In this document: one piece after another, positions 32,057-38,775 of the stretch
How positions within the stretch are numbered: the first letter of the stretch is position 1
How the letters are laid out: the number at the start of each line of letters is the position of its first letter
NCBI RefSeq assembly: GCF_009914755.1
Contig: NC_060927.1
Length of the DNA: 64,000 bases
From: the human T2T-CHM13v2.0 reference genome, Homo sapiens
Reading direction: 5' to 3' (one strand)
Notes under the pieces: generated by a model
Told to the model about the DNA's origin: nothing
What the model saw: the letters and a program-made list of their open reading frames with translations, nothing else
Database searches by the model: none
Translations under genes and position numbers: made by a program

Positions 32057-32371
32057 TAGTCTTCCTATAATCCATACTGTCCTAATCCATATTCAGTTAG
32101 TCATCTGTTAAATGTAAGTAGCATCACAGTAAGATCACTACACACCAGAATGGCTAAAATGAAAAAGACTGATAGTATCAACTAAGAGCAAAAATGTGGA
32201 ATGACAGAAACTTTTATATATTCTTCATGGGAGTATAAGTTGGTACAACCACTTTGGAAAGTAATTGGCATTATCTATTATGTATGACCCAGCAATTCCA
32301 TTTATAGGCATATATCCAACTGTTAAGTGTGCACATTGCACCAAAAGACATAGACATATATAAAAACATTC

Positions 32372-32697
32372 TTTTTTTTTTACATCACATTTTCTTTATT
32401 TCTTCATTGGCTGGTGGGCATTTATGCCCATTCCATATTTTTACATTGCAAATTGTGCTGCTATAAACATACGTGTGTAAGTGCCTTTTTCATACAATGA
32501 CTTTTTTTTCCTCTGGGTAGATACCCAGTAGTGGGATTGCTGGATCAAATGGTAGTTCTTCTTTTAGTTTAATCTCCATACTGTTTTTCATACTGATTGT
32601 ATTACTTTACATTCCCACCAACAGTGTAAAACTATTCCCTTTTCACCACATCCATGCTAACATCTATTATTTTTTAATTTTTAAATTATGGCCATTC
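32372..32697 (-). mobile_element. 3'-transduced segment (L1PB-like internal fragment plus second poly-A)
   Basis: Lies between the L1PA poly-A and the TSD. AATAAA at 32400-32395, A10 at 32381-32372. Confidence 0.8.
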
Positions 32698-35600: not shown

Positions 35601-38354
35601 AGCTTTACTTCCAACTATTTGGTCAGTTTTGGAACAGGTGTTGTGTGGTGCTGAAAAGAATGTATATTCTGTTGATTTGGGGTGGAGAGTTCTGTAGATG
35701 TCTATTAGGTCCGCTTGGTGCAGAGCTGAGTTCAATTCCTGGATATCCTTTTTAACTTTCTATCTCGTTGATCTGTCTAATATTGACAGTAGGGTGTTAA
35801 AGTCTCCCATTATTATTGTGTGGGAGTCTAAGTCTCTTTGTAGGTCTCTAAGGACTTGCTTTATGAATCTGGGTGCTCCTGTATTGGCTGCATATATATT
35901 TAGGATAGTTAGTTCTTCTTGTTGAATTGATCCCTTTTACCATTATGTAATGGCCTCTTCGTCTCTTTTGATCTTTGTTGGTTTAAAGTCTGTTTTATCA
36001 GAGACTAGGCTTGCAACCCCTGCCTTTTTTTGTTTTCCATTTGCTTGGTAGATCTTCCTCCATCCCTTTATTTTGAGCCTATATGTATCTCTGCACATGA
36101 GATGGGTTTCCTGAATGCAGCATACTGATGGGTCTTGCGTCTTTATCCAATTTGCCAGTCTGTGTCTTTTAACTGGAGCATTTAGTCCATTTACATTTAA
36201 GGTTAATATTGTTATGTGTGAATTTGATCCTGTCATTATGATGATAGCTGGTTATTTTGCTCCTTAGTTGATGCAGTTTCTTCCTAGCCTCGATGGTCTT
36301 TACAATTTGGCATGTTTTTGCAGTGGCTGGTACCGATTGTTCCTTCCCATGTTTAGTGCTTCCTTCAGGAGCTCTTGTAGAGGCCTGCCCTACAAGAGGC
36401 CTGGTGGTGACAAAATCTCTCAACATTTGCTTGTCTGTAAATAATTTTATTTCTTCTTCACTTATGAAGCTTAGTTTGGCTGGATATGAAATGCTGGGTT
36501 GAAATTTCTTTTCTTTAAGAATGTTAAATATTGGCCCCCACTCTCTTCTGGCTTGTAGAGTTTCTGCCGAGAGATCAGCTGTTAGTCTGATGGGCTTCCC
36601 TTTGTGGGTAACCCGACCTTTCTCTCTGGCTGCCCTTAACATTTTTTCCTTCATTTCAACGTTGGTGAATCTGACAATTATGTGTCTTGGAGTTGCTCTT
36701 CTCAAGGAGTATCTTTGTGGCATTCTCTATATTTCCTGAATTTGAATGTTGGCCTGCCTTGCTAGATTGGGGAAGTTCTCCTGGATAATATCCCGCAGAG
36801 TGTTTTCCAACTTGGTTCCATTCTCCTTGTCACTTTCAGGTACACCAATCAGATGTAGATTTGGTCTTTTCACATAGTTCCATATTTCTTGGAGGCTTTG
36901 TTCATTTCTTTTTATTCTTTTTTCTCTAAACTTCTCTTCTCGCTTCCTTTCATTCATTTGATCTTCCATTACTGATACCCTTTCTTCCAGTTGATCAAAT
37001 CGGCTACTGAGGCTTGTGCATTCATCACGTAGTTCTCGTGCCATGGTTTTCAGCTCCATCAGGTCCTTTAAGGACTTCTCTGCATTGGTTATTCTAGTTA
37101 GCCATTCGTCTAATTTTTTTTCAAGGTTTCTAACTTCTTTGTGATGGGTTCGAACTTCCTCCTTTAGCTCGGAGTAGTTTGATCATCTGAAGTCTTCTTC
37201 TCTCAACTCGTCAAAGTCATTCTCCATCCAGCGTTGTTCCGTTGCTGGTGAGGAACTGTATTCCTTTGGAGGAGGAGAGGCACTTGATTTTTAGAGTTTC
37301 CGGTTTTTCTGCTGTTTTTTCCCCATCTTTGTGGTTTTATCTACCTTTGGTCTTTGATGATGGTGACGTACAGATGGGGTTTTGGTGTGGATGTCCTTTC
37401 TGTTTGTTAGTTTTCCTTCTATCAGTCAGGACCCTCAGCTGCAGGTCTGTTGGAGTTTGCTGGAGGTCCACTCCAGACCCTTTTTACCTGGGTATCAGCA
37501 GCGGAGGCTGCAGAACAGCAGATATTGGTGAACAGCAAATGTTGCTGCCTGATCATTCCTCTGGAAGTTTTGTCTCAGAGGAGTACCCGGCCATTGTGAG
37601 GTGTCAGTCTGCCCCTACTGGGAGGTGCCTCCCAGTTAGGCTACTCGGGAGTCAGGGACCCACTTGAGGAGGCAGTCTGTCCGTTCTCAGATCTCCAGCT
37701 GCGTGCTGGGGGAACCACTACTCTCTTCAAAGCTGTCAGACAGGGACATTTAAGTCTGCAGAGGATTCTGCTGCCTTTTGTTTCGCTATGCCCTGCCCGC
37801 AGAGGTGGAGTCTACAGAGGCAGGCAGGCCTCCTTGAGCTGAGGTGGGCTCCACCCAGTTGGAGCTTCCTGGCTGCTTTGTTTACCTACTCAAGCCTCAG
37901 CAATGGTGGGGGCCCCTCCCCCAGCCTCGCTGCCACCTTGCAGTTTGATCTCAGACTGCTGTGCTAGCAATGAGCGAGGCTCCGTGGGTGTAGGACCCTC
38001 CGAGCCAGGCGCAGGATATAATCTCCTGGTGTGCTGTTTGCTAATACCGTTGGAAAAGTGCAGCATTAGGGTGGGAGTGACCTGATTTTCCAGGTGCCAT
38101 CTGTCACCCCTTTCTTTGACTAGGAAAGGGAATTCCCTGACCCCTTGAGCTTCCTGGGTGAGGTGATGCCTCTCCCTGCTTTGGCTCATGCTTGGTGCGC
38201 TGCACCCACTGTCCTGCACCCACTTTCTGACACTCCCCAGTGAGATGAACCTGGTACCTCAGTTGGAAATGCAGAAATCACCCGTCTTCTGCATCGCTCA
38301 CGCTGGGAGCTGTAGACTGGAGCTGTTCCTATTTGGCCATCTTTGCTTCACCCC
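32698..38354 (-). mobile_element. Near-full-length L1PA (L1PA3/4-like): complete 5'UTR, disrupted ORF1 (37326-36300) and ORF2 (from 36236), 3' deletion
   Basis: 5' end GGGGTGAAGCAAAGATGGCCAAATAGGAACAGC. ORF1 and ORF2 (MTGSNSHITILTLNVNGLN) fragments with stops and frameshifts. TSD AAAAACATTC at 32362-32371 and 38356-38365. Confidence 0.97.
37903..38085 (+). pseudogene. L1 ORF0 (antisense ORF), truncated to 60 of 71 aa
   Basis: MVGAPPPASLPPCSLISDCCASNERGSVGVGPSEPG... matches primate L1 ORF0, with a CGA>TGA stop. Confidence 0.9.
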
Positions 38355-38775
38355 AAAAAACATTCATTGTCGCATAACAACCCTAAACTGGAGATCTAAA
38401 TAGCTAGCAGTTTTAGAATAGATAAATAAGTTGTGGTATATTTTCATAATGGAATATTCTATGGGAATGAAAATTAATAAACTAGCTACAAGCAATAGCA
38501 TGGAGGCATCTCATATGGGCACAAAAGAATACATTATGATATACTTTATATGAAGATCAAAGCAGACAAATAAAACTATTAGAAGTCATGATAATGGCTA
38601 CTATTGGGGAGAAGAAAGACGGTAGTGACTAGGGAGAGGTTATAAGATATCTAAGGTGGTGTTTATGTTCTAATCCTTAAACTGGATGTTGGTTACATGA
38701 CTATATTCACTTTGTGATGATTCATTGAGCCATGCAGTTATAATTCATGAACTTACTCTGCTAATTTTCATAAAG

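What the first reader, a model, noticed from the sequence alone, without database searches (positions are those of the whole stretch)
32362..38365. L1 3' transduction: 316 bp of foreign flank carried in with the full-length L1
Seen: the TSD AAAAACATTC encloses both the L1PA and an extra segment (32382-32697) beyond the L1 poly-A. That segment is an internal piece of an older L1PB-like element. It ends in a second poly-A 13 nt after an AATAAA, apparently mutated from consensus GATAAA. The interrupted L1ME rejoins across the TSD. This is the established signature of read-through transduction, and RepeatMasker would probably mask it as an ordinary L1 fragment. The tag could identify the source element and its siblings.
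Basis: partly seen in the sequence, partly recalled or inferred. Interest (0 to 1): 0.7.

Follow-up and report, generated by a model that had tools for sequence, protein, structure and literature searches.

The report
Old L1 transduction with vanished parent
A dead jumping gene (LINE-1) in a human intron carries a 316-letter tag that also sits behind a second LINE-1 and at its home site elsewhere on the chromosome, where the parent element that likely carried it off is now missing; this is a new example of a well-known kind of event.

Summary
Confirmed: an old 3' transduction. A 10-nt target-site duplication encloses a full-length, decayed L1PA, its poly(A), a 316-nt piece of older L1, an AATAAA and a second poly(A). 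The tag has two close relatives in the genome. One is a 5'-truncated sibling at C5:44.39 Mb (96%) with the same two junctions. The other is the tag's home at C3:84.65 Mb (95%). The next best match is 85%, and the three form a 100/100 clade. The home site has no young L1 upstream and no scar. An unrelated L1PA and an Alu sit at the homologous base in two paralogs, each with a 16-nt duplication, so the site accepts insertions. A donor L1 therefore likely sat there about 12-20 My ago (recalled rates), produced at least one of the two copies by read-through, and was lost, probably without ever fixing. Such 'parentless' transductions are described in dogs. Ape genomes could not be checked. New member of a known kind; modest interest.

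The parts
32362..32371 (.). Target-site duplication, 3' copy (10 nt)
   Evidence: exact match to 38356-38365
32372..32381 (-). Second poly(A) tail (A10), at the end of the read-through transcript
   Evidence: absent from the home locus, which continues into a GT-rich tract
32382..32697 (-). Transduced tag, 316 nt of an old L1 ORF2 3' end (L1PB-like, recalled label); home locus G000:C3:84650363-84650676
32395..32400 (-). AATAAA signal 13 nt before the second tail; G in 16 of 17 paralogs, A in window, sibling and donor
32698..32706 (-). L1 poly(A), A9; its last two A's are probably the first bases of the lost donor's 3' TSD
   Evidence: inference from paralog insertions
32707..38354 (-). Full-length, decayed L1PA (about 6.15 kb before two deletions; likely L1PA4, range L1PA3-L1PA5, recalled diagnostics)
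32793..32794 (-). 477-nt internal deletion (end of ORF2 and most of the 3' UTR) with 2-nt microhomology; the sibling keeps part of this segment
37327..38354 (-). 5' UTR, 1028 nt; ORF1 ATG at 37326
38356..38365 (.). Target-site duplication, 5' copy
32125..32361 (+). Interrupted old L1 host, left part
38366..38478 (+). Interrupted old L1 host, right part, collinear with the left part
   Evidence: weak: above shuffles against 1 of 7 references

Best explanation
The window holds a full-length L1PA plus a 316-nt tag inside one target-site duplication, and the tag's home at C3:84.65 Mb lacks a young L1, so a donor L1 likely once sat there, likely read through into the tag, and was likely lost without ever fixing. 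Steps. (1, inferred) An L1PA4-age element inserted in sense orientation into an old L1 copy at C3:84,650,361. (2, inferred from the shown structure and established L1 biology) Transcription passed the L1's weak poly(A) signal and ended about 316 nt downstream, at an AATAAA that this copy had gained from GATAAA and that is followed by a GT-rich tract. (3, shown as structure) That RNA form was inserted twice: full length here, in a ZCWPW2 intron antisense to the gene, and 5'-truncated at C5:44.39 Mb. One copy may descend from the other or from an intermediate. (4, inferred) The donor-bearing haplotype drifted out, leaving a clean empty site. The window copy later decayed and is inert.
For: One TSD encloses L1, tag and both tails. 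The tag matches its home at 95% and the sibling at 96%, the next best of 40 scored candidates at 85%. 29 alignment columns, including a 7-nt deletion, are shared by the three and differ from the majority of 17 paralogs; clade support 100/100. Two diagnostic patterns find exactly these 3 loci genome-wide; a third finds 2 of them, because the sibling has a 2-nt deletion there. Window and sibling share both junctions. The home locus is collinear with 13 of 13 aligned paralogs across the junction, its flanks have no recent duplicate, and no same-strand full-length young L1 lies within 17 kb upstream or 12 kb downstream. An L1PA (C21) and an Alu (C12) are inserted at the homologous base in other copies, same orientation, each with the same 16-nt TSD, and give the same poly(A)-to-tag junction; 323 exact copies of the target word exist. 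Tag divergence (2.9-4.5% non-CpG) matches that of the L1 from its 11 nearest fetched relatives (3.5-4.7%), so tag and L1 are the same age. 'Parentless' transductions are attributed to dimorphic parents in dogs (PMC7980453, PMC13141329).
Against: The donor L1 is not observed; an empty site looks the same after non-fixation and after precise excision. Window and sibling share 2 substitutions and 1 homopolymer base that the home locus lacks, which also fits serial descent; support for that pairing is weak (91/65). The window's own target site is a poor match to the TTTT/AA consensus (sequence). The sibling has no TSD (longest shared flank word 5 nt). The DNA search scored only 40 of 4180 candidates, so more divergent or short siblings could be missed.
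Confidence: 0.72

Rival explanations
1. Same transduction, but the donor L1 did fix and was later removed precisely by recombination between its two TSD copies.
For: A scarless site is what precise excision leaves. A 16-nt TSD like those at the paralog sites would offer the homology. Precise deletion of retroelements is recalled from the literature; the primary paper was not read.
Against: Most new L1 insertions are lost by drift and precise excisions are rare (recalled). The 2-3 changes shared by window and sibling against the home locus fit a donor haplotype distinct from the surviving one.
Confidence: 0.1
2. Serial descent, a variant of the best reading: only one copy came from the lost donor, and the full-length window L1 (before its deletion) or an unseen intermediate produced the C5 copy.
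For: 3 derived columns are shared by window and sibling, none by either with the home locus. The window copy has a complete 5' UTR.
Against: The pairing is weakly supported (91/65, branch 0.0035), and allelic difference of the lost haplotype explains 2-3 changes. The sibling keeps sequence deleted in the window copy, so that deletion must postdate the event.
Confidence: 0.25
3. No L1 ever sat at the home locus. Reverse transcription began on a polyadenylated RNA from that locus and switched template to an L1PA RNA at its poly(A), making a chimera that then produced the second copy.
For: No donor is seen. The home locus has an AATAAA with a GT-rich downstream tract. Only 2 A's of homology are needed at the junction.
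Against: The junction falls on exactly the base where independent L1-driven insertions occur in paralogs, which a switch would not predict. It also needs the window copy to be the parent of the sibling.
Confidence: 0.07
4. Not a transduction: an L1PA inserted next to, or into, a fragment that was already here (older relic, duplication or orphan insertion).
For: The tag is itself L1 sequence, and the tag's 5' end is an accepted insertion site.
Against: It would have to happen twice, here and at C5, with the same tag ends. No copy of the 16-nt target word lies at the L1's 5' end, where the TSD instead matches the far side of the tag. The donor flanks are not duplicated. Tag and L1 have the same age.
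Confidence: 0.03

Closest known systems
L1 3' transduction families (Goodier 2000, Pickeral 2000, Szak 2003: seen only as reference-list entries; mechanism read in passages of bioRxiv 10.1101/2021.07.12.451456, PMC2768975 and PMC12350158)
   Same: L1, poly(A), downstream tag, second poly(A) after a poly(A) signal, all inside one TSD; the tag maps to a home locus and links siblings.
   Different: Fixed-looking and about 12-20 My old rather than a polymorphic L1Hs event; the tag is itself old L1 sequence; no progenitor is present at the home locus.
'Parentless' LINE-1 3' transductions in dogs (PMC7980453, PMC13141329; passages read)
   Same: The tag aligns to a locus with no adjacent L1. PMC7980453 reports 17 of 18 such cases, including a pair sharing one tag; the parent is taken to be dimorphic.
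   Different: There the parent is expected to segregate still; here it is ancient and probably extinct. The PMC13141329 pipeline discards tags with under 25 bp of unmasked sequence, so an all-repeat tag like this one would be dropped.
AluSx-WaluSat in T2T-CHM13 (bioRxiv 10.1101/2021.07.12.451456, section 7 part 1 of 2 read)
   Same: An old primate transduction whose ancestral tag locus stands without the mobilising element.
   Different: Alu-driven and later amplified by duplication; here L1-driven with two offspring and no duplication.

Membership tests
L1 3' transduction | One TSD encloses both the L1 and the extra segment | tested here: met
   10-nt exact TSD; 0 of 20,000 random pairs
L1 3' transduction | L1 poly(A) at the L1-tag junction and a second, non-templated poly(A) after the tag | tested here: met
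   A9 and A10; the home locus has no A-run at either end
L1 3' transduction | Poly(A) signal shortly before the second tail | tested here: met
   AATAAA 13 nt upstream, also at the home locus, with a GT-rich tract after it
L1 3' transduction | Tag maps to a unique home locus at an identity that fits the L1's age | tested here: met
   95% against 85% background; clade 100/100; matching divergence
L1 3' transduction | Progenitor L1 directly upstream of the home locus, same strand, or a clean empty site | tested here: met
   Met in the empty-site form only: no L1 is present; homologous sites accept insertions
L1 3' transduction | L1 and tag absent together in species that lack the insertion | not testable with these tools
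   No other primate genome is held (no relatives)
Parentless transduction from a polymorphic donor | Donor-bearing allele seen in another individual or species | not testable with these tools
   Single assembly only
L1PA4 subfamily | Diagnostic positions and a long 5' UTR that keeps the 129-bp segment lost in L1PA2/L1PA1 | tested here: inconclusive
   5' UTR is 1028 nt, and 10 of 11 nearest relatives show a similar length; the 129-bp loss is described in PMC5860796 passages. No consensus library was available, so the name rests on recalled diagnostics.
Segmental duplication | Flanks of the tag duplicated with it | tested here: not met
   Donor flanks have no match above 90%; identity stops at the tag ends

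The most novel reading that the evidence does not exclude
The tag marks an extinct hominoid source L1 at chr3:84.65 Mb that survives in another ape lineage, through lineage sorting or precise excision in humans. Tags made wholly of old repeat would then be an overlooked, genome-wide record of vanished source elements and their target sites.
Probability: 0.15. Interest if true: 0.55.

Novelty: new member of a known kind. Interest (0 to 1): 0.33.

Why it matters
It gives a fully resolved three-locus family (two offspring and an empty home site) for an L1 that no longer exists in this genome, with one exact coordinate to check in ape assemblies. It also shows that a tag made only of old L1 sequence still maps uniquely, although at least one published pipeline filters such tags out (PMC13141329). 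No effect on ZCWPW2 is shown or expected: the insertion is intronic and decayed.

Tried and rejected
A duplicated donor region carrying the L1: the upstream 866 nt and downstream 661 nt have no recent paralog. A nearby L1 as source: the only long young L1 within the 29.7 kb examined is antisense, 5'-truncated and 2.5 kb upstream; one 70-nt same-strand piece lies 13 kb upstream. More siblings, longer tags or orphan tags: none. The extra hits at C21 (81% to the tag) and C12 (about 80%) are independent insertions in other copies, not siblings. Splicing as the cause of the 477-nt deletion: by eye the ends do not give GT-AG joining; 2-nt microhomology instead. The repeat finder did not list the TSD among its 20 largest families; it was confirmed by script. 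Host continuity was weak against 6 of 7 references. Szak 2003, Pickeral 2000, the journal version of Hoyt with supplements and Jacobs 2014 were not available to read.

Full report
Observation. On the minus strand the region reads: TSD (38356-38365), L1 from 38354 to 32707, A9 (32698-32706), 316 nt of other sequence (32382-32697), A10 (32372-32381), TSD (32362-32371). The 10-mer AAAAACATTC occurs only at these two places in the window, and 0 of 20,000 random junction pairs from the flanks matched over 10 nt. AATAAA lies 13 nt before the second tail. The flanks align collinearly to one older L1 copy in the window above shuffle maxima (90 vs 54, 60 vs 46); the right flank failed to beat shuffles against the other 6 of 7 references, so host continuity is supported but not strongly.

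The L1. It begins with GGGG and has a 1028-nt 5' UTR; 10 of its 11 fetched nearest relatives show an ORF1-like start at a similar offset. Its 5' region is 92-94% identical to the other 39 of 40 scored candidates, and the first 1.5 kb differs from the 11 fetched relatives by 3.5-4.7% outside CpG. Against an intact-ended L1PA it has a 477-nt deletion at 32793/32794 and a 20-nt deletion at 33001/33002, so it was about 6.15 kb. That length fits a copy older than the 129-bp 5' UTR loss described for L1PA2/L1PA1 (PMC5860796, passages). The name L1PA4 is from recalled diagnostics. Both frames are broken into pieces (longest stop-free run 243 aa).

The tag's relatives. A search of the window's own genome scored 40 of 4180 candidates: self 100%, C5:44389317-44389630 96%, C3:84650363-84650676 95%, and 37 others at 82-85%. 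C3 is chr3 by the hub's note; I infer that C5, C12 and C21 are the like-numbered chromosomes. With 17 of the 37 paralogs as outgroup, window (W), C5 (S) and C3:84.65 (D) share 29 columns against the outgroup majority, among them a 7-nt deletion and the G-to-A change that makes AATAAA (G in 16 of 17). They form a clade at 100/100. Patterns from the 3' and middle parts of the tag hit exactly these 3 loci; a third hit W and D only, S having a 2-nt deletion there.

The sibling. S is 324 nt of L1PA 3' end, A9, the same tag from the same first base to the same last base, then one T and A15, inside another old L1. It has no TSD (longest shared flank word 5 nt); comparison with 4 paralog sites suggests a few target bases were lost. 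It keeps 3' UTR sequence that W has deleted.

The home locus. D continues as old L1 on both sides of the tag, has no A-run at either end, and aligns without extra bases to 13 of 13 paralogs across the 5' junction. After the point where W and S turn to poly(A), D has a GT-rich tract, as a working poly(A) site would (established knowledge). Its flanks have no recent duplicate. In 29.7 kb around it the only long young L1 is antisense and 5'-truncated. So the source element is absent here.

Did an L1 ever sit there? Two junction patterns each returned one extra locus. At C21:27.13 Mb a short L1PA, and at C12:19.25 Mb an Alu, are inserted in other copies of the same old L1 at the homologous base, in the same orientation, each with the TSD AAGAATGGCCATAATT. 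Their downstream sequence is only about 80% like the tag, so they are independent events. The exact 21-nt target word has 323 copies, so at least 2 of 323 are filled at this one base. The junction in W and S is what such an insertion plus read-through would produce. This is the main support for a former donor over a template switch.

Age and descent. Differences: W-S 11 of 314, W-D 15-16 of 314, S-D 16-17 of 312. Private changes: W 5, S 8 columns (7 events), D 10; shared by W and S against D and outgroup, 3 columns (2 substitutions, 1 homopolymer base); none shared by D with only one offspring. W+S support is 91/65. At recalled primate neutral rates this is about 12-20 My, the same epoch as the L1 itself. 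The shared changes fit either a donor haplotype distinct from the surviving one, or descent of S from W or an intermediate; the data do not separate these.

Mechanism. Shown: the structure, the three-locus family, the empty home site, insertions at homologous sites. Inferred: a donor L1 at C3:84,650,361; read-through to the gained AATAAA; loss by drift (0.72) rather than precise excision (0.10). A template-switch chimera (0.07) or chance juxtaposition (0.03) fit poorly. Serial descent (0.25) overlaps with the best reading and concerns only which copy made which.

Comparison with what is known. 3' transduction is common: 466 of 5,311 polymorphic L1 insertions carry a transduction (5', 3' counted together; PMC12350158, passages), and 183 top-confidence L1 3' events were annotated in CHM13 (bioRxiv 10.1101/2021.07.12.451456, passages and section 7 part 1 of 2). 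Parentless tags are the majority among dimorphic dog L1s (PMC7980453, PMC13141329; passages). I found no description of this family in 8 searches (listings seen); the one ZCWPW2 hit concerns polymorphic insertions in general (PMC10638045, passages). PMC2768975 and PMC7353768 were seen as passages only. Szak 2003, Pickeral 2000 and Table S13 of the T2T repeat paper could not be read and may list this locus, so absence from print is not established.

Verdict. Real, well resolved, and a new member of a known kind. The missing donor and the all-repeat tag add modest interest: 0.33.

Noticed in passing
L052:1136-1545 (G000:C21:27.129 Mb) and L055 (G000:C12:19.249 Mb): An L1PA fragment and an Alu inserted independently at the same base of different old-L1 copies, with identical 16-nt TSDs; at least 2 of 323 exact copies of the target word are filled.
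   Followed up: yes
L021:2977-4955 (G000:C5:44.390-44.392 Mb): A younger L1PA with a 5' inversion and an apparent short TSD, 500 nt from the sibling; the locus is at least three nested layers of L1.
   Followed up: partly
L021:1730-1801: Next to the sibling's tail, a short inverted L1 piece and a duplicated 17-nt word; unexplained micro-rearrangement.
   Followed up: no
L022:6750-8150: The donor's host L1 is itself 5'-inverted; the tag lies in the inverted part.
   Followed up: partly
window 22223-25066: A second L1PA of similar age (94% to the window L1 over 2.3 kb), + strand, 5'-truncated and interrupted near its 3' end; 24378-24630 resembles the tag at 71%.
   Followed up: no
window 31540-32050: An LTR-like stretch just left of the host L1, by eye only; no family assigned.
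   Followed up: no
window 38769-39070: Alu on the minus strand 400 nt beyond the L1's 5' end.
   Followed up: no
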